From the IMG/VR virus record IMGVR_UViG_3300029305_006221, positions 1-64,000 of that record: DNA of 64,000 bases; one strand, given 5' to 3'. Source of the stretch: a virus. The notes under the pieces are model-generated. The model was not told where the DNA came from, did no database searches, and was given only the letters and a program-made list of their open reading frames with translations. Below, one piece after another: positions 35,537 through 44,349 of the stretch (the stretch's first letter is position 1; every line of letters begins with the position of its first letter). A program made the translations under genes and the position numbers.

Positions 35537-36150
35537 ATTATAAAGAAAGGAAGGGTAGAAAAATGTGCCCGAATAACAAGGGCATGGAGCGCTATGCGGA
35601 TCCTGACACCGCAACGGGAGTTTGGAAGACTCCAATGTTTCCTTTACACCAATAGCGCAGATTGTGCTTAAGATTGTCAATTGAATTTTCCCGTGGAGTA
35701 GTTAATTGTATCCACGCTTTTCCCAACCCTACCGAGTACTATCTTTTGCAAGACCGTGCCAAACGGATTCTCTTGACGGAGCGCTGTGTTTGGGGCAGAG
35801 GCTCTCTTAAGCGTTGTTATAAATTACTTGATATTTGCGCAGTGACCACCTGTCTTCGGCCCATTGGTCATTCCTAAAGGCGCTACCTTTGCACAGTTCT
35901 GCTTATCAAGTAAATGGGAGAACAGACAGAATTCCCAACGCTGTCTGTTAGTGACACTAACGGTCTCCTCGGGGAGGAAGTGTCTATTTTTCCGAGCTTA
36001 TATCCCAGCCACAGGGGTTTAATAAGGTATGCTCCCCGCAACACTTTCGCAGTAAAAACCGACTCACAGGCGTGCGCTGCCTTTTGAAGAAATTAGCCAC
36101 TGGGTAAGAGCGTGCAGCGTCACCGCGTGCAGGTTTTCTTCTTGACGCCA

Positions 36151-36235
36151 TGGAGCACCTGGTTGGATTCGAACCAACGCGGACATGGTCTCTCGCTTAC
36201 AAGGCGAGTGCAATCGGCCACTATGCGACAGGTGC
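36151..36235 (-). tRNA. tRNA, anticodon UGU, 85 nt with a 13-nt variable region (class-II-like body)
   Basis: 7-bp acceptor GCACCUG/CAGGUGC plus CCA. T-arm GUUGG/UUCGAAU/CCAAC. Anticodon arm CUCGC-CUUGUAA-GCGAG. Confidence 0.55.
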
Positions 36236-36882
36236 ATATTAAATAGGGAGGTGAAGCCTTAGGTCAGCCAACCGCATATCTTCTTCTTTTGGGCATCGGG
36301 TATTTGCTACCTTCCACAATTCGAGTAGATAACCGTTTCATCTTTCAATCTACATCTGGCTTAGACATTCGTTAAGAGGTCTACCAGAACCACACCACAT
36401 CCTAGGCGCCAATCGCACTCTACTTTTCGTCGCTAAACTACTTTTCGAGTGGACGAAATCCACGATTTTCTCGACATTTGATTTCAATTACATTTTCGTG
36501 AGCGCTCTCTCAAGCCTACTCTGATTTTCTCAGTAGTAATCACCTCAAAATACTCAATGAAATCAAGGTTATTTACTTATATCGAATATTAATGTTTCAA
36601 CCTTTCGGTTTCCGCTTGGATCAGATTGGTTTTTGGCAGTACCGTTCCACATCAATATCGAATTAATTTATGTCCAAGTTCCAATAATCGTTTCGAGCAA
36701 GCTGCCACCTTTTTGATTTTTCGCATCATGCCTCGTCGCGCGTACGGATTCGCCTATTGATACCGTATAGTCACCAACGCTTTCGTGCTCGTGCTGCGAG
36801 GTTGGCTCGTGGTTAGTACTCTTATGATCCTGAATACTCCAGAAGTCATCTACATTCACCTTACGGCTTGGAAGTAGCTCCA

Positions 36883-36960
36883 TGGTGTCAATCGAGGGAT
36901 TCGGACCCATCACTTGCTAGTTCCTAAGACTAGTGCCTCTACCAATTGGGCTAGACTGAC
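36883..36960 (-). tRNA. tRNA, anticodon UAG, class-I body (short variable loop)
   Basis: Acceptor GUCAGUC/GAUUGAC plus CCA. Anticodon arm CUAGU-CUUAGGA-ACUAG. T-loop UCCGAAU. Confidence 0.5.
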
Positions 36961-37175
36961 ATTTTTAGAAGGTTGTTTGCAGCACAACCCAAGCTGTTAT
37001 GAAAGGGAGGAAAACTATGAGAAAGTCTCATAAGCACTTACTTTGCCAATTTTTATCCCGCTTTGCCACAAGCCACATACCTCGTTACCATATCGCGGTA
37101 AGCCGCACCTTGGTCTGAGTCGGTGGTAGTTTAGTGCTAATCCATGTCTTCGCGGTTGCCAGATTAAACTGACTG

Positions 37176-37252
37176 TTGGCTCTCGGTTGAGGGCTTGAAC
37201 CTCAGACCCCAAAGTTAACAGCTTTGTGCTACTACCAACTGAGCTAACCGAG
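37176..37252 (-). tRNA. tRNA-Asn (GUU)
   Basis: Canonical cloverleaf. Anticodon loop CU-GUU-AA. T-loop UUCAAGC. CCA encoded. Confidence 0.75.
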
Positions 37253-37500
37253 AATATCTTGGCAGAGGATGAAGGTACCGCCCCTTCTTCGTGCGGGTCA
37301 AAGCCGCATGTGTCCACTTGTCCACCAATCCTCTATTTCAACCACGATTAGCGACCTCTTTCGAGCAATTTTGGATCGAGAATTTGTTGATGGAAACTCG
37401 GGTCAGGAGTTTATATTGCATCGCCTTTATTTTACATATTTATTATATCATAAATTTTTTATTTTTTCAACAAATTATCCTTACGCTACCTTTTTATTTT

Positions 37501-37587
37501 TGGTGAGCGTGGCGGGAATCGAACCCGCGATGGACATAATGTCGAGGGATTAAAAGTCCCTTGTACTCGCCGCTGTACTACACGCTC
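37501..37587 (-). tRNA. tRNA, anticodon UUU, 87 nt with a 16-nt variable arm (class-II-like body)
   Basis: Acceptor GAGCGUG/CACGCUC plus CCA. D-stem GUAC/GUAC. Anticodon arm AGGGA-CUUUUAA-UCCCU. Variable arm GACAUUAUGUC. Confidence 0.5.
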
Positions 37588-38109
37588 ATGTCGAAGTGGT
37601 AGCAGCACGATTATTACTTTTGAAGTGATCTAATCTGCCGCTCTAACTTACGGATAATTCTACCATTTTCGCGTTTGCGGCTTTTAAGCAATTCTATTCT
37701 TGCCTGAAGGCTTTCAATTGTTCTCATTTCTTTTATTTCCTTTCTTTATCTTAACAAATATATTATATCATAATTTTTTAAAAAAATCAATGATTTTTCT
37801 TTAACTTGGAGGTTGCTTTCATCTAATGGTGGTTAGATGAAAGTCTCTGCATACCGTTTTTCTTTGCTACGGTAAAACAATGGAGATTCTTGTTGGCTTC
37901 GCTCCAACGATCACAGGGTTGCAGCCTGCTGCCTTAACTGAACTTGGCTAAAGAATCATATGTAGAAAGAGAGGAGGAGAGTTTTTATACCCAGCAAGAG
38001 AAACACTCTCCGAACTCTATATAGGAGGTATCTAATGCGCTAATTATCCAACTACTGGGAGAAGGATTGGCGCCAATCGTTGCCCTAAGAATCTTTTAGG
38101 CACAGTTAT

Positions 38110-38185
38110 TGGACGGAGTGACAGGACTCGAACCCGCGTGATCTTGCTCCCAAAGCAAGCGCCTAACCAACTAGGCTACACCCCG
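38110..38185 (-). tRNA. tRNA-Pro (UGG)
   Basis: Anticodon arm CUUGC-UUUGGGA-GCAAG. Acceptor CGGGGUG/CACUCCG plus CCA. Confidence 0.7.
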
Positions 38186-38875
38186 AAATTCCAGCTCTTG
38201 GATACGGGAAGCTGGGCCCGCGCCTTTCATAGCTTTGTCGGATAAACCTACGCTACTACTAAGCCACATCATAAATCTCGCATTTCATCTTGGAAGCGAA
38301 ACTCCAGCGGATATTTGGCCCACCGCTGCCTGTGTCTTGAGACTCAACACTATTACTCGTCTTCTTATATAGCGTTTGCGACTTCGCTCTCTACTCGCTC
38401 TGTTGATGTGAGAGGAACATCCCCTCCAGAGGTCTTAGTAGATTTGAAGGTGTTCGAACTTCCGCGCATTTCCATTCCTCTTCCTTACCAGTGGGGCAAT
38501 TGCTCTAATCCCTCATGACCTTCAAAGCCTGCGCTCTATGGCGGTTTTCTCCGACACCGCAAAACGACTCTGGAGACTTTGTTTATTTACTCGTTGCTCC
38601 AGACCTCGAGTACTCACCCTTAGAGCTGGGTGGAATAGGCTGTTCATCAAACTCCATTTACCACTGCATTTTATTGCCTCACAGAGCTGTATCTCATTCA
38701 GACCTAGGATTTTAAGAATGAGCTAATTACATCAAGTAATATTCACTCCCAAATTGTTATCGGCATCGTGGCACCTATTATCTTTCCCCCGTTGCTCACG
38801 GATGCGGGACCCCGGACGCTCTGCGTATTACCGCACAGGTTAGCCTCCTGACCAATGATTAGGCATTGGCACCTC

Positions 38876-38955
38876 TGGCAGTCCCGACGGGGCTCGAACC
38901 CGCGACCTCTAGTGTGACAGACTAGCGCTCTAGCCAAAGACTGAGCTACGAGACT
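38876..38955 (-). tRNA. tRNA-Asp (GUC)
   Basis: Anticodon arm CUAGU-CUGUCAC-ACUAG. 12-nt D-loop. CCA encoded. Confidence 0.7.
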
Positions 38956-43124: not shown

Positions 43125-43247
43125 TTTTTTTTCTTTTCTTCCTCTCTCATTATTACATATATATATTATATCATATTTTTTTATAAAAATCAATAATTGC
43201 GCAAGAAATTACTTTTAAATGCCTTAAGATATGGATTAAAATGTTTT

Positions 43248-43322
43248 TGGCAGGGGACCTAGGATTCGAACCCAGACCAAGCGGGTTGGAGCCGCGTATG
43301 CTAGCCGTTACACCAATCCCCT
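43248..43322 (-). tRNA. tRNA-Trp (CCA)
   Basis: Anticodon loop CU-CCA-AC. Acceptor AGGGGAU/GUCCCCU-G-CCA. Confidence 0.65.
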
Positions 43323-43329
43323 ATATCTC

Positions 43330-43575
43330 TCATAAAACCTCCCACCAAAACTCAGAAATTTTACGATATCTTCCTTTGCTGCCTAAATCGCCTTTATAGC
43401 GACGGACAGCGCGATTACATTTTCGCTTAACAAAGCGAACTCGCTCTGGCATTTGATATCTGCGATAAATACCTTTTTCTTCATCATAGTAAACACCTTT
43501 ACCATACCAAGTTTTGGTTTGGGAATAACAGTGTTTATCTCGTCTTCTTTGGTCTCTACTTCTTTTCCAACCCAT
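43330..43575 (-). CDS. small highly basic protein
   Basis: 81 aa, Arg/Lys-rich, between tRNA genes. Confidence 0.3.
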   Translation of the reverse strand: MGWKRSRDQRRRDKHCYSQTKTWYGKGVYYDEEKGIYRRYQMPERVRFVKRKCNRAVRRYKGDLGSKGRYRKISEFWWEVL

Positions 43576-43654
43576 AAGCCTCTCCTTTCTGAGTGGGTAT
43601 TATTATATTAAAATTTCTTTTAATACTTTAATTACTTTTGAAAAAATTTTTACC

Positions 43655-43807
43655 CTAATCTTCCATAGAGCGACAGTCGTGCGCCTTTTCACGCTTGCGA
43701 TTATGTTTCTTCTTACTTTCAATTACTCTTGTATGCAGAGAGGGCGAGTTGCGCATTCTTTCTTTACGCATAGCTTGAGTCTCTTTTGCTTCAAGCGGCT
43801 TTTTATT
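43655..43807 (-). CDS. small highly basic protein
   Basis: Start MSNKKPLEAK. Arg/Lys-rich. Confidence 0.3.
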   Translation of the reverse strand, partial: NKKPLEAKETQAMRKERMRNSPSLHTRVIESKKKHNRKREKAHDCRSMED

Positions 43808-43906
43808 ACTCATTTCCTCTCTCCTTTTGTTTATTAACACAAACTCGACCACACGCGTCCCACCGTCCTGTTTCATACGCCTAAGCCTTGTCCGTCGGTT
43901 GTGTAT

Positions 43907-43981
43907 TGGCACGGGATAAAGGAATCGAACCCTTGTCTTGGCGTCCGTAGCGCCACGTTCTGTCCATTAAACTAATCCCGC
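43907..43981 (-). tRNA. tRNA-Arg (ACG)
   Basis: Anticodon arm UGGCG-CUACGGA-CGCCA. CCA encoded. Confidence 0.7.
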
Positions 43982-44108
43982 ATAAAAATGCAAAGGTATC
44001 TAAGGCGATTCTGATAGAGTTGTCCTTTGCTAGTGTTTTTATCTCTATGTTTAAACACTTCTTTCAGTCTTTATATAAACCCGAATAGAGATGAGGTTTA
44101 TATCGCAT

Positions 44109-44185
44109 TTGGTGCGCCACCAAGGGCTCGAACCTTGGGTCTGCTGATTAAGAATCAGCTGCTTTACCACCTAAGCTAGTGGCGC
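44109..44185 (-). tRNA. tRNA-Lys (CUU)
   Basis: Anticodon arm GCUGA-UUCUUAA-UCAGC. Acceptor GCGCCAC/GUGGCGC-A-CCA. Confidence 0.7.
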
Positions 44186-44274
44186 ATATTTACTTCCAAC
44201 CGCCGAACGGGTAGCACGGTCATCTGGTCTCCTTTTGCGGCGAGACGCTTACTACATTCCCCATGTTGTCCTTG

Positions 44275-44349
44275 TGGCACGGGATAAAGGATTCGAACCT
44301 TTGGCTTATCGCTTAGAAGGCGATTACTCTTCCGCTGAGTTAATCCCGT
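44275..44349 (-). tRNA. tRNA-Arg (UCU)
   Basis: Anticodon arm AUCGC-CUUCUAA-GCGAU. CCA encoded. Confidence 0.7.

What the first reader, a model, noticed from the sequence alone, without database searches (positions are those of the whole stretch)
35541..44349. tRNA island: 20 tRNA or tRNA-like genes in several promoter-driven units, separated by GC-rich ORF-free spacers that may encode structured RNAs or decayed tRNAs
All tRNAs are on the minus strand and are preceded by class-A promoters. The long spacers (35541-36150, 36236-36882, 38186-38875, 39498-39861, 42491-42855) are about 50% GC in an otherwise roughly one-third-GC genome. They contain strong hairpins but no plausible ORFs. The ORFs called there overlap tRNAs and are spurious. 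At 39157-39240 and 39805-39860 there are tRNA half-like elements: T-arm plus acceptor-like hairpins without 5' halves.
Basis: partly seen in the sequence, partly recalled or inferred. Interest (0 to 1): 0.5.

Follow-up and report, generated by a model that had tools for sequence, protein, structure and literature searches.

The report
Phage tRNA island packed with structured RNAs
The "empty" GC-rich gaps between the tRNA genes of this uncultured gut phage hold extra, oddly shaped tRNAs and about a dozen conserved folded RNAs of no described family, in an island where two of its relatives carry the giant cage-forming ROOL RNA.

Summary
There are 20 standard tRNA genes on the minus strand (36151-44349), six near-identical strong promoters, one strong terminator, and long ORF-free spacers richer in G+C (0.42-0.48) than the window (0.377). 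The "strong hairpins" claim fails: folding energies are not unusual.

The spacers are not junk. Five more cloverleaf tRNAs hide in them: Met/CAU-like, Tyr, Ser/UGA-like, Gln-like and Gly-like. Four of these five have non-standard D or T loops. There are also two decayed tRNAs and one circularly permuted tRNA-like domain.

The remaining spacer sequence forms about 12 unique RNA modules. These are 78-100% identical in 11 related phage genomes whose protein genes are mostly only 59-86% identical. Compensatory base-pair changes support folds with pseudoknots, GNRA hairpins and long-range helices. Two modules are large: L (at least 350 nt) and M (about 490 nt).

None of the modules matches Rfam 15. 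Two relatives carry ROOL RNA next to module L; the window does not.

In the relatives the modules abut or exactly fill the gaps between specific tRNAs, and AUAU precedes most tRNA 5' ends. I therefore infer a tRNA-punctuated array of non-coding RNAs, cut out by the tRNA-processing enzymes. Its function is unknown.

The parts
43165..43193 (-). Promoter P1 (TTGATT-17-TGnTATAAT). It drives the small ORF 43124-42906.
   Evidence: Promoter scan, 10 of 12 matches plus TG. Member of the repeated promoter family found by self-BLAST.
42867..42895 (-). Promoter P2. It starts the unit A, odd tRNA, B, Glu, Glu, C5', Met-like, UAU tRNA, Tyr.
41371..41399 (-). Promoter P3. It starts the unit ORF, Leu(UAA), D, Ser(GCU), E1, Ser(UGA)-like, E2, Ile, F, Ala, Val.
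39125..39153 (-). Promoter P4. It starts the unit G, Asp, H, Pro, I, Cys.
37762..37790 (-). Promoter P5. It drives a 37-aa ORF (37727-37614) and tRNA-Lys(UUU).
37442..37470 (-). Promoter P6. It starts the unit J, Gln-like, Asn, K, Leu(UAG), L, Thr, M, Gly-like, terminator.
   Evidence: 11 of 12 matches plus TG.
35509..35539 (-). Intrinsic terminator that closes the island.
   Evidence: 13-bp stem with 6 G-C pairs, followed by a T run.
36151..44349 (-). Span that holds the 20 standard tRNA genes: Arg-UCU, Lys-CUU, Arg-ACG, Trp, an odd tRNA with an 8-nt anticodon loop (42490-42416), Glu-UUC, Glu-CUC, a type-II tRNA with anticodon UAU, Leu-UAA, Ser-GCU, Ile-GAU, Ala, Val, Asp, Pro, Cys, Lys-UUU, Asn, Leu-UAG and Thr-UGU. 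All but the odd tRNA encode CCA.
   Evidence: ARAGORN. Rfam tRNA scores of 38-69 bits.
41749..41821 (-). Hidden tRNA with anticodon CAU (Met-like). C1xA72 mismatch, 5-bp D stem with a 5-nt loop (3 nt by the RNAalifold pairing), T loop GGCAGUA, and ...A-C-CCA at the 3' end. It is the only CAU tRNA in the window.
   Evidence: Not called by ARAGORN or Rfam. In an alignment of 6 distinct homologues, 22 pairs are predicted and 10 show compensatory double changes. A distant copy is at L014.
41432..41520 (-). tRNA-Tyr(GUA), type II with a long variable arm.
   Evidence: Rfam tRNA-Sec model, 38.1 bits, E=8.6e-5. ARAGORN at 85% threshold. Relatives have Tyr(GUA) at the same place.
40200..40291 (-). Ser(UGA)-like type-II tRNA. 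6-bp D stem with a 4-nt loop as read from the sequence (ARAGORN draws 3 pairs), T loop AUCGACA, CCA encoded.
   Evidence: ARAGORN at 85% threshold. 98-100% identical in four relatives.
37260..37334 (-). Gln(UUG)-like tRNA with T loop GGCGGUA, CCA encoded.
   Evidence: ARAGORN at 85% threshold. Relatives have a standard Gln(UUG) directly after module J.
35586..35659 (-). Gly(UCC)-like tRNA with a 9-nt T loop (UGUCAGGAU), CCA encoded.
   Evidence: ARAGORN at 85% threshold. Relatives have Gly(UCC) 1 nt after module M.
39158..39318 (-). Two degenerate tRNA-like elements (39318-39240 and 39230-39158), probably decaying tRNA genes.
   Evidence: Rfam 27.1 bits, below the cut-off of 29. ARAGORN calls them only at 85% threshold, with mismatched acceptor stems. 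No relative aligns over 39400-39201.
42491..42855 (-). Module A: a 365-nt leader running from promoter P2 to the odd tRNA.
   Evidence: MFE z-score -2.8. 86% identical to L001 over 342 nt. The 3' 130 nt are conserved in four further loci (L001, L017, L018, L025) and end 1-2 nt from the tRNA.
42204..42415 (-). Module B. It exactly fills the gap between the Ile-type tRNA and Glu(UUC).
   Evidence: 74-82% identical in four loci, with gaps of 0-3 nt to both tRNAs in L001 and L003.
41822..41945 (-). Module C5': a structured leader directly 5' of the Met-like tRNA (three hairpins and a conserved junction CUUAAUGGGAAGUUGGGAUAA).
   Evidence: Found in 12 loci from 10 relative genomes at 74-94% identity. 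All three hairpins show compensatory changes, for example GUACAG/CUGUAC to GUCGAG/CUCGAC and GAGGGU/ACUCUC to CAGGUGU/ACACCUG.
40555..40873 (-). Module D, with core D1 at 40850-40745. In L022 it lies within 2 nt of Leu(UAA) on one side and Ser(GCU) on the other.
   Evidence: D1 is 94-97% identical in 8 loci from six relative genomes. A possible pseudoknot (ACCGA/UCGGU plus GCCA/UGGC changing to ACCGU/ACGGU) rests on one diverged sequence only.
40292..40461 (-). Module E1. It exactly fills the gap between Ser(GCU) and the Ser(UGA)-like tRNA.
   Evidence: 85-90% identical, with gaps of 0-2 nt to both tRNAs in L003/L006, L020 and L022.
39941..40199 (-). Module E2, with core at 40145-40025, between the Ser(UGA)-like tRNA and Ile(GAU).
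   Evidence: 78-84% identical in 6 loci. Gaps of 7 and 6 nt to the two tRNAs in L004.
39756..39861 (-). Module F5': a circularly permuted tRNA-like domain. Order: 12-bp closing helix P1, T arm (GGUUCGAAUCC), closed 'acceptor' hairpin (CCUGUCUCC-UAACC-GGGGAUGGG), D-arm-like hairpin, then P1'.
   Evidence: The P1 helix forms in the MFE folds of all 5 homologues; T, acceptor and D hairpins each recur in three or four of them, and only L004 and L025 show all three together. P1 carries compensatory changes. This is the same order of arms as in YrlA Y RNAs (PMC4201824).
39498..39755 (-). Module F3': the rest of spacer F, up to tRNA-Ala.
   Evidence: 75% identical to L003/L006 over 338 nt. MFE z-score -1.9 for the whole of F.
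38956..39100 (-). Module G: a roughly 145-nt leader from promoter P4 to tRNA-Asp. It forms a four-way junction closed by UUGGU/GCCAG.
   Evidence: 10 distinct homologues. 28 pairs, 98.2% of cells paired, covariation score above all 500 shuffles. In L003/L006, L017/L018, L020 and L026 it ends 2-3 nt before a tRNA.
38186..38875 (-). Module H (690 nt) between Asp and Pro. H5' (38875-38761) starts at a tRNA 3' end. H3' (38420-38186) ends at the Pro 5' end and carries an H-type pseudoknot.
   Evidence: H5' is 91-96% identical in 6 loci from four relative genomes. H3' is 76-92% identical in 10 loci from nine relative genomes. 37 predicted pairs, 6 with double changes. Pseudoknot CGGG/CCCG plus CCAGCU/AGCUGG changing to CCAGCC/GGCUGG.
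37958..38109 (-). Module I, between Pro and Cys.
   Evidence: Partly conserved: 38018-37965 is 89-91% identical in L001 and L004. Not analysed further.
37335..37425 (-). Module J: a roughly 90-nt leader from promoter P6 to the Gln tRNA. It has stem P1, a variable hairpin, a GNRA hairpin and a pseudoknot.
   Evidence: 9 distinct homologues. 21 pairs, 99.5% of cells paired, 5 pairs with double changes (only 8 of 500 shuffles reach this), slid controls give 0. It ends 0-4 nt before Gln in 8 of 10 loci.
36961..37176 (-). Module K, between Asn and Leu(UAG).
   Evidence: 81-86% identical in L001 and L022. Not analysed further.
36236..36882 (-). Module L, a large RNA. The conserved 3' domain (36586-36240) is closed by a 19-bp long-range helix. 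The 5' part is variable.
   Evidence: 6 sequences. 82 pairs, 94.6% of cells paired, 21 pairs with double changes against 6.0 +/- 1.9 in shuffles (0 of 500), slid controls give 1-5. No Rfam match. It ends 2 nt before Thr in L001.
35660..36150 (-). Module M, a large multi-domain RNA between Thr and the Gly-like tRNA. It has invariant long-range helices ACUUGAUA/UAUCAAGU and GCUUAAGA/UCUUAAGC.
   Evidence: 4 sequences at 75-81% identity. 119 predicted pairs, 14 with double changes. It ends 1 nt before Gly(UCC) in three relatives.
44364..45107 (-). Upstream flanking gene: a 247-aa protein with no Pfam hit of its own. Two distant homologues carry PF10127, and a source names three others 'predicted nucleotidyltransferase'.
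   Evidence: 350 homologues, two of the listed ones with PF10127. It sits directly upstream of the island in all relatives.

Best explanation
The region is an RNA-gene island of a large uncultured phage. A relative's contig was binned with a Eubacteriales genome, so the host is probably in that group.

Shown. The island holds at least 25 cloverleaf tRNAs: 20 standard and 5 that default tRNA finders miss, four of the five with non-canonical D or T loops. It also holds two decayed tRNAs and one permuted tRNA-like domain. In addition there are about 12 unique non-coding modules. These modules are conserved more strongly than the neighbouring protein genes. The six analysed (C5', G, H3', J, L, M) are shaped by base-pairing constraints. 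Two of them, L (at least 350 nt) and M (about 490 nt), are large, multi-domain RNAs.

Inferred. Six strong sigma-70-type promoters produce polycistronic transcripts that end at one terminator. In these transcripts the tRNAs act as punctuation. RNase P cuts at the AUAU-marked 5' end of each tRNA, and 3' processing occurs at the encoded CCA. Together these cuts release both the tRNAs and the intervening modules as discrete RNAs.

Speculative. The released modules act as stable phage RNAs in the manner of ROOL and GOLLD, the large RNAs typical of phage tRNA islands, or of the T4 tRNA-cluster RNAs C and D. They might scaffold, protect or sequester tRNAs, or decoy host RNA-targeting defences. Alternatively they act in cis to guide precursor folding and processing.
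For: tRNAs and promoters.

Conservation. Blocks are 80-97% identical in relatives whose flanking proteins are 55-69% identical at the amino-acid level. A per-segment table shows modules at 69-97% identity in all comparisons listed (78-97% for nearly all) against 59-86% for protein-coding segments, apart from one 93% flank. The profile covers 13 contigs from 11 relative genomes.

Covariation.
- J: 99.5% of cells paired, 5 pairs with double changes.
- G: 98.2% paired.
- L: 21 of 82 pairs with double changes against 6.0 +/- 1.9 in shuffles, 0 of 500 shuffles reaching it, slid controls 1-5.
- H3': 6 of 37 pairs.
- M: 14 of 119 pairs.
- Met-like tRNA: 10 of 22 pairs.

Not coding. The longest stop-free runs are short. 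23 of 28 gap runs in the L alignment and 28 of 32 in the M alignment are not multiples of three.

Punctuation. In the relatives most modules begin or end within a few nt of a specific tRNA, several of them in only some relatives. At positions -4 to -1 of 25 tRNAs, A, U, A and U occur in 21, 21, 22 and 23 cases.

Context. ROOL is present at full length in two relatives' islands, next to the module L homologue in L022. The literature states that ROOL and GOLLD are often encoded near phage tRNA islands (PMC12286853, PMC5737381).
Against: There are no expression or end-mapping data, so transcription, processing and stability of the modules are all inferred.

Folding energies are not unusual.

The alignments are shallow, with 4-10 sequences from one phage clade, and the clade is mosaic. 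Some shared compensatory changes may therefore be single inherited events. High identity in some pairs may reflect recent recombination. For example, module G is 95% identical to a relative whose flank protein is only 59% identical.

Several modules (B, E2, I, K, F3', the middle of H, the 5' part of L) were not tested for structure or are poorly conserved.

The modules are known only from this clade: motif scans of IMG/VR and of the genome collection returned only relatives.
Confidence: 0.7

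Rival explanations
1. The modules are only cis-acting parts of the tRNA precursors: leaders, trailers and spacers. They are selected because they help the precursors fold, recruit RNase P or resist host nucleases. They are degraded after processing and have no independent function.
For: Each module is tied to a particular tRNA and abuts it: J to Gln, G to Asp, H3' to Pro, C5' to Met-like, E1 to Ser(UGA), L to Thr, M to Gly. The AUAU motif sits at the junctions. Folding energies are ordinary.
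Against: Leaders of 350-690 nt with multi-domain folds, pseudoknots and 19-bp long-range helices are far beyond what tRNA processing is known to need. Identities of 94-97% in D1 and 90-96% in H5' exceed those of several tRNAs. ROOL, a free-standing RNA with its own promoter, sits in the same array in relatives.
Confidence: 0.2
2. The spacers are decayed tRNA genes, that is, pseudogenes left by turnover of the tRNA array.
For: Two clearly degenerate tRNAs lie at 39318-39158 and are not conserved. F5' is tRNA-derived. tRNA content differs among relatives.
Against: The conserved modules give no tRNA-model hit even at E<=10. They are unique sequences with no similarity to one another or to the tRNAs. 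They are under purifying selection with compensatory changes that support non-cloverleaf folds. Decaying pseudogenes would be the least conserved parts, not the most.
Confidence: 0.04
3. The spacers are remnants of mobile elements: group I introns or homing-endonuclease cassettes that invade tRNA islands.
For: The relatives' islands carry GIY-YIG, HNH and PD-(D/E)XK ORFs. In L006 the Thr gene is split after the anticodon by an ORF-bearing insert. The window itself holds four homing-endonuclease genes elsewhere.
Against: No tRNA in the window is interrupted, and ARAGORN's intron search finds none on the island strand. There is no group I or group II intron hit. The modules lie between complete tRNAs, have 42-48% G+C (the flanking coding sequence is 30-39%), and are conserved in place across the relatives in which they occur.
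Confidence: 0.03
4. The spacers are protein-coding under a changed genetic code, or the high identity merely reflects very recent recombination with no function.
For: A suppressor-like tRNA(CUA) lies at 21520. Some ORFs elsewhere in the window lengthen if TAG is read through. One plus-strand frame at 39922-40476 stays open with TAG read-through. The clade is mosaic.
Against: On the transcribed strand no recoding opens the spacers. Gaps in the alignments are mostly 1-2 nt. The substitutions are the compensatory kind expected of RNA helices. The blocks are conserved in up to 10 relative genomes that are divergent elsewhere.
Confidence: 0.03

Closest known systems
ROOL RNA (Rfam RF03087) and GOLLD RNA: large 'ornate' RNAs of phages and prophages
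   Same: [quoted passage not shown] Modules L and M are of similar scale (at least 350 and about 490 nt) and have multi-domain folds with long-range helices. Like GOLLD, L has a conserved 3' domain and a variable 5' part, and a tRNA lies between L and M. ROOL itself occurs in the islands of two relatives, directly after the L homologue in L022.
   Different: There is no sequence or covariance-model similarity: no ROOL or GOLLD hit even at E<=10 on 1.3 kb. Blastn of the two relatives' ROOL sequences against the window finds nothing. L and M are known only from one phage clade. Nothing is known about whether they form multimers.
Phage T4 tRNA gene cluster, with stable RNAs C and D (species 1 and 2) and the SegB GIY-YIG homing endonuclease (from my own knowledge)
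   Same: A phage tRNA cluster transcribed as polycistronic precursors. It also yields small stable RNAs of unknown function cut out by the tRNA-processing machinery, and it is invaded by GIY-YIG endonuclease genes. GIY-YIG genes occur in the relatives' islands.
   Different: T4 has 8 tRNAs and two RNAs of about 120-140 nt. Here there are at least 25 tRNAs and about 12 modules totalling roughly 4 kb, some very large. No sequence relation was tested or is expected.
YrlA-type bacterial and phage Y RNAs (Rfam RF02553)
   Same: Module F5' has the same permuted tRNA-like topology that was described for YrlA: a closing helix, then a T stem-loop, a closed acceptor-like stem-loop and a D stem-loop (PMC4201824). 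It has a standard T loop, GGUUCGA.
   Different: The YrlA model does not hit F5' at E<=10. I do not find the GNCGAA(N)G Ro-binding motif by eye. No TROVE/Ro60 gene is adjacent, nor found among the 30 window ORFs scanned. F5' sits inside a tRNA array directly after tRNA-Ile.
tRNA-punctuated processing: mitochondrial transcripts, MALAT1-mascRNA, and the tRNA-miRNA units of murine gammaherpesvirus 68 (from my own knowledge)
   Same: tRNA or tRNA-like structures are used as cleavage signals for RNase P and RNase Z, which define the ends of neighbouring non-tRNA RNAs. Here the modules abut tRNAs within 0-4 nt, and AUAU marks the tRNA 5' ends.
   Different: Those systems are eukaryotic, organellar or from animal viruses. 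Processing here is inferred only.

Membership tests
tRNA (Rfam RF00005): the 20 listed genes | Covariance-model score at or above the gathering cut-off of 29 bits, and a cloverleaf with an anticodon | tested here: met
   19 genes score 38.4-68.7 bits at gathering. Leu-UAG scores 43.9 bits in the E-value scan. ARAGORN draws cloverleaves for all 20. One gene (42490-42416) has an 8-nt anticodon loop and no CCA.
tRNA: the hidden genes (Met-like, Tyr, Ser-UGA-like, Gln-like, Gly-like) | Covariance-model score at or above the cut-off | tested here: not met
   Only Tyr is reported, and by the tRNA-Sec model at 38.1 bits against a cut-off of 47. The other four are not reported even at E<=10.
tRNA: the hidden genes (Met-like, Tyr, Ser-UGA-like, Gln-like, Gly-like) | Four-arm cloverleaf with a 7-nt anticodon loop, an encoded CCA, and pairs kept by compensatory change | tested here: met
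   ARAGORN at 85% threshold draws cloverleaves for four of them. For the Met-like tRNA, 22 pairs are predicted and 10 show double changes. All five end in CCA. Standard D-loop and T-loop sequences are missing in four of the five. Whether they can be aminoacylated cannot be tested here.
ROOL RNA (RF03087) | Match to the 574-position covariance model at or above 99.1 bits | tested here: not met
   No hit in the window at gathering score, at E<=10 on 10 kb, or at E<=10 on 1.3 kb. The feature is met in relatives: L005 at 175.2 bits and L022 at 163.4 bits.
GOLLD RNA | Match to the Rfam covariance model | tested here: not met
   No hit in the window or in 14 related loci.
YrlA Y RNA (RF02553), tested for module F5' | Permuted tRNA-like domain (T, closed acceptor, D) inside a helix formed by the 5' and 3' ends | tested here: met
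   The P1 closing helix forms in the MFE folds of all five homologues; T, acceptor and D hairpins each recur in three or four, all three together only in L004 and L025. P1 carries compensatory changes. The T, acceptor-stem, D order is as described in PMC4201824.
YrlA Y RNA (RF02553), tested for module F5' | Covariance-model match, and a gene encoded next to a Ro60/TROVE gene | tested here: not met
   The only YrlA hits (E=2 and 7.7) overlap ordinary tRNAs, not F5'. The neighbours of F5' are tRNA genes. None of the 30 window ORFs scanned has a TROVE domain. Not all ORFs were scanned.
For introns, interruption of a gene. | tested here: not met
   No such hits, apart from a permuted-tmRNA match at E=8.6 (15.7 bits against a cut-off of 47). 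No split tRNA on the island strand.

The most novel reading that the evidence does not exclude
Modules L and M, which flank tRNA-Thr, and perhaps module H, are new classes of large 'ornate' phage RNA. They would be functionally equivalent to ROOL and GOLLD, which sit in the same kind of island. On this reading they are self-assembling or tRNA-tethering RNA machines released from a tRNA-punctuated precursor. The whole island would then be a phage 'RNA operon' that also supplies a parallel set of tRNAs with altered D and T loops, possibly shaped to escape host tRNA-targeting defences.
Probability: 0.25. Interest if true: 0.8.

Novelty: new member of a known kind. Interest (0 to 1): 0.6.

Why it matters
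ROOL and GOLLD are among the largest bacterial and phage RNAs, and their function is unknown. The only recurrent clue is that they sit in phage tRNA islands.

This clade shows that such islands can hold a whole collection of further conserved structured RNAs. These include two large ones that lie beside ROOL in one relative (L022), together with tRNAs that have non-standard elbow regions and a Y-RNA-like permuted tRNA mimic.

That gives concrete new candidates for structural and functional work, with sequences, alignments and provisional folds. It also gives a testable processing model: AUAU-marked tRNA punctuation. Finally, it serves as a warning that default tRNA finders and Rfam miss a fifth of the tRNAs and all of the other RNAs in such islands.

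Tried and rejected
- Thermodynamic stability. MFE z-scores against dinucleotide shuffles for 14 spacers on both strands were unremarkable, so they are not evidence either way. Two earlier attempts timed out (one search was cut off after the controls began).
- Alternative genetic codes. Read-through of TAG, TGA or TAA does not open the spacers on the transcribed strand. One plus-strand TAG-read frame (39922-40476) was judged to be chance in G+C-rich sequence.
- Intron-containing tRNAs. ARAGORN with the intron option finds only spurious calls on the opposite strand.
- Internal repeats. Only the promoters and parts of tRNAs repeat. The spacers are not a repeated family.
- Rfam at relaxed thresholds on 10 kb and on 1.3 kb gives nothing but tRNA-related hits and noise.
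- Cultured phages. Megablast and sensitive blastn return only tRNA-sized hits.
- Motif scans of public collections.
  - CAGTGCCAACTTGGCTGT returned the known relatives plus two chance loci.
  - CCAGAGCCTCATAAGCTCAGG returned four metagenome loci matching only the Met-like anticodon arm. One of them (L014) is a true distant copy of that tRNA. It returned nothing in genomes.
  - The J, L and M motifs returned only this clade.
- The insert in the split Thr gene of L006 has no Rfam hit.
- A search for Ro60/TROVE, RtcB or other RNA-repair genes among 30 ORFs found none. The flanking 247-aa protein itself has no Pfam hit; only two distant homologues carry PF10127.
- I did not build covariance models.

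Full report
**1. What is there**

ARAGORN finds 20 tRNA genes between 36151 and 44349, all on the minus strand. Rfam confirms 19 at its gathering score and the twentieth at 43.9 bits.

The window as a whole is 0.377 and the flanks are 0.30-0.39. The contrast is real but smaller than "50% against one third".

Six minus-strand promoters of the form TTGATT/TTGAAA-17-TGnTATAAT lie at 43193, 42895, 41399, 39153, 37790 and 37470. One 13-bp terminator lies at 35539-35509. The promoters are a repeated family, 74-95% identical over 34-87 nt.

Five small ORFs with ribosome-binding sites also sit in the region.

The "strong hairpins" claim is not borne out. MFE z-scores are -2.8 for spacer A, -1.9 for spacer F, and above -1.5 elsewhere, like the coding controls.

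**2. Hidden tRNAs**

A relaxed Rfam scan adds a type-II Tyr(GUA) at 41520-41436 and a sub-threshold tRNA at 39230-39159.

ARAGORN at 85% threshold adds four tRNAs and two degenerate elements:
- Tyr
- Ser(UGA)-like, 40291-40200
- Gln(UUG)-like, 37334-37260
- Gly(UCC)-like, 35659-35586
- two degenerate elements at 39318-39158

Reading the most conserved block revealed a further tRNA with anticodon CAU at 41821-41749. It has a C1xA72 mismatch and a 5-bp D stem with a very short loop (5 nt in the window; 3 nt by the RNAalifold pairing). Its T loop is GGCAGUA. In six distinct homologues, including a distant metagenome copy (L014), 10 of its 22 pairs carry compensatory double changes.

Four of these hidden tRNAs (all but Tyr) share non-standard elbow sequences. 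Their T loops are GGCAGUA, GGCGGUA, AUCGACA and UGUCAGGAU. All five end in an encoded CCA.

The island therefore holds at least 25 cloverleaf tRNAs. Only His and Phe anticodons are missing.

**3. The rest of the spacers is conserved**

The phage has no cultured relative. The flanking 247-aa protein has 350 homologues; two of the listed ones carry Pfam PF10127, and a source calls three others a predicted nucleotidyltransferase.

Through that protein I fetched syntenic islands from 11 related genomes. These relatives have flank proteins 55-94% identical at the amino-acid level. Their protein-coding DNA is 59-86% identical to the window, with one exception at 93%. The non-coding modules are 78-100% identical in nearly all comparisons:

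| Module | Identity |
|---|---|
| D1 | 94-97% in six genomes |
| H5' | 90-96% |
| J | 78-94% |
| G | 79-95% |
| H3' | 78-92% |
| C5' | 72-94% |
| L | 78-88% |
| M | 80-83% |

The modules are unique sequences; only the promoters repeat.

They are not coding. No reading frame opens under any stop-codon reassignment on the transcribed strand. In addition, 23 of 28 gap runs in the L alignment and 28 of 32 in the M alignment are not multiples of three.

**4. The modules are folded RNAs**

- **J** (about 90 nt, from promoter to Gln). 21 pairs, 99.5% of cells paired. It has a variable hairpin that changes length and sequence. It also has a GNRA hairpin (CUCGAAAGAG changing to CCCGAAAGGG). A pseudoknot is supported by a G-C to A-U change. 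Slid controls give zero double changes.
- **G** (about 145 nt, from promoter to Asp). A four-way junction, 28 pairs, 98.2% paired.
- **H3'**. 37 pairs, 6 with double changes, and an H-type pseudoknot next to tRNA-Pro.
- **C5'**. Three hairpins, all with compensatory changes.
- **L 3' domain** (36586-36240). 82 pairs, of which 21 carry double changes against 6.0 +/- 1.9 in column shuffles (0 of 500) and 1-5 in slid controls. A 19-bp long-range helix carries three adjacent compensatory pairs in one relative.
- **M**. 119 predicted pairs, 14 with double changes among only four sequences. Invariant 8-bp long-range helices close its domains.
- **D1**. The proposed pseudoknot rests on a single diverged homologue and is tentative.

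**5. A permuted tRNA mimic**

It consists of a 12-bp closing helix, a T arm with the standard GGUUCGAAUCC, and a closed 9-bp acceptor-like hairpin. A D-arm-like hairpin follows.

The closing helix forms in the separate folds of all five homologues. The T, acceptor-like and D hairpins each recur in three or four of them, and all three appear together only in L004 and L025. The closing helix carries compensatory changes.

This is the arm order described for YrlA Y RNAs (PMC4201824). However, the YrlA model does not hit it, and no Ro60 gene is adjacent or found among the 30 ORFs scanned.

**6. Known families**

Rfam 15 gives nothing but tRNAs in the window, even at E<=10 on 1.3 kb.

In two relatives the island contains a full-length ROOL RNA: 175 bits in L005 and 163 bits in L022. 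In L022, ROOL has its own promoter. It sits between the homologue of module L and tRNA-Thr, which is followed by the homologue of module M. The window simply lacks it.

The literature states that ROOL and GOLLD are encoded in phages and prophages, "often near tRNA islands". They form RNA-only nanocages, and GOLLD sometimes carries tRNAs in its linker (PMC12286853, PMC5737381).

**7. How it probably works**

In the relatives, most modules begin or end within a few nt of a particular tRNA:
- B lies between Ile and Glu.
- D1 lies between Leu and Ser in L022.
- E1 lies between the two Ser tRNAs.
- J ends 0-4 nt before Gln in 8 of 10 loci.
- G ends 2-3 nt before a tRNA in four relative genomes (Asp in two of them).
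- H3' ends 0-11 nt before Pro in L003/L006 and L023, and more than 100 nt before the next tRNA in the other relatives.
- L ends 2 nt before Thr in L001.
- M ends 1 nt before Gly.

The four bases before the mature 5' end of 25 tRNAs are A, U, A and U in 21, 21, 22 and 23 cases.

I therefore infer polycistronic transcripts from the six promoters. In these, RNase P acts at the AUAU-marked tRNA 5' ends and 3' processing acts at the encoded CCA, releasing both tRNAs and modules. This has not been shown.

Whether the modules then act as free RNAs or only serve the precursors cannot be decided here.

**8. Rivals**

- Decayed tRNAs explain only 39318-39158.
- Mobile-element remnants are unlikely. No tRNA in the window is split, there are no intron hits, and the modules keep their place across the relatives in which they occur. 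Homing-endonuclease genes do invade the relatives' islands, and one relative has a Thr gene split after the anticodon.
- Recent recombination contributes to the mosaic identities but does not explain the compensatory substitutions.

**9. Limits**

There are no expression data. The alignments hold 4-10 sequences from one mosaic clade, so the counts of compensatory changes overstate the number of independent events. Several modules were not analysed. The predicted folds, especially of M, are provisional.

**10. Host**

The one hit in the genome collection is a 106-kb contig binned with a Eubacteriales metagenome-assembled genome. This fits the Firmicutes-type extended -10 promoters.

Noticed in passing
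window 21520-21595 (-), and ORFs at 9946-11160, 20288-20956, 21678-22592, 25901-27319: A suppressor-like tRNA with anticodon CUA (ARAGORN calls it 'Pyl'; Rfam tRNA 53 bits). Several minus-strand ORFs lengthen or appear if TAG is read through. This suggests partial TAG recoding in this phage.
   Followed up: partly
window 48600-64000: Few long ORFs under the standard bacterial code. GC skew turns strongly positive at about 50-54 kb. A weak ARAGORN-only tRNA-Thr(AGU) lies at 57013-57082.
   Followed up: no
window 30265-32790 (-): An 841-aa protein with a Major Vault Protein shoulder domain (E=3.5e-25) and a vault repeat. This is unusual in a phage.
   Followed up: no
window 27549-28466 (-); 17710-18450, 9946-10563, 29458-30249, 6335-7045 (-): A complete sigma-70-family factor with regions 1.2, 2, 3 and 4. 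Four homing-endonuclease genes: GIY-YIG between gyrB and gyrA, a second GIY-YIG, an HNH and a LAGLIDADG.
   Followed up: partly
L006 8340-9089 (relative IMGVR_UViG_3300029305_005988): The tRNA-Thr gene is split exactly after the anticodon (...CUUGU | AAGCG...) by about 665 nt. The insert is almost entirely filled by a 218-aa ORF, and a GIY-YIG ORF lies just upstream. There is no Rfam hit and too little non-coding sequence for a group I ribozyme core.
   Followed up: partly
L005 8997-9611 and L022 18416-19041: Full-length ROOL RNAs (175 and 163 bits) inside the relatives' tRNA islands, just upstream of tRNA-Thr. In L022 the RNA has its own TTGACA-17-TATAAT promoter.
   Followed up: yes
window, the 4 nt 5' of each tRNA in 35586-44349: AUAU occupies positions -4 to -1 of most tRNAs (A 21, U 21, A 22 and U 23 of 25). 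The same AUAU also precedes the closing helices of modules G (39088) and L (36582).
   Followed up: partly
window 42416-42490, 41588-41677, 36883-36960, 37501-37587, 36151-36235 (-): Odd tRNAs. One has an 8-nt anticodon loop and no CCA. One has a type-II, Leu-like body with anticodon UAU; its homologues in relatives read UAG. Leu(UAG) lacks a long variable arm. Lys(UUU) and Thr(UGU) have long variable arms.
   Followed up: partly
L003 18130-18205: A relative carries a tRNA with anticodon UCA (opal-suppressor-like; ARAGORN calls it 'SeC') in the slot directly before module H5'.
   Followed up: no
L014 4412-4492 (-) (metagenome contig Ga0114918_10001971, G+C 0.51): A distant copy of the non-canonical Met-like tRNA lies in an unrelated tRNA cluster. 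This odd tRNA type is therefore not confined to this phage clade.
   Followed up: partly
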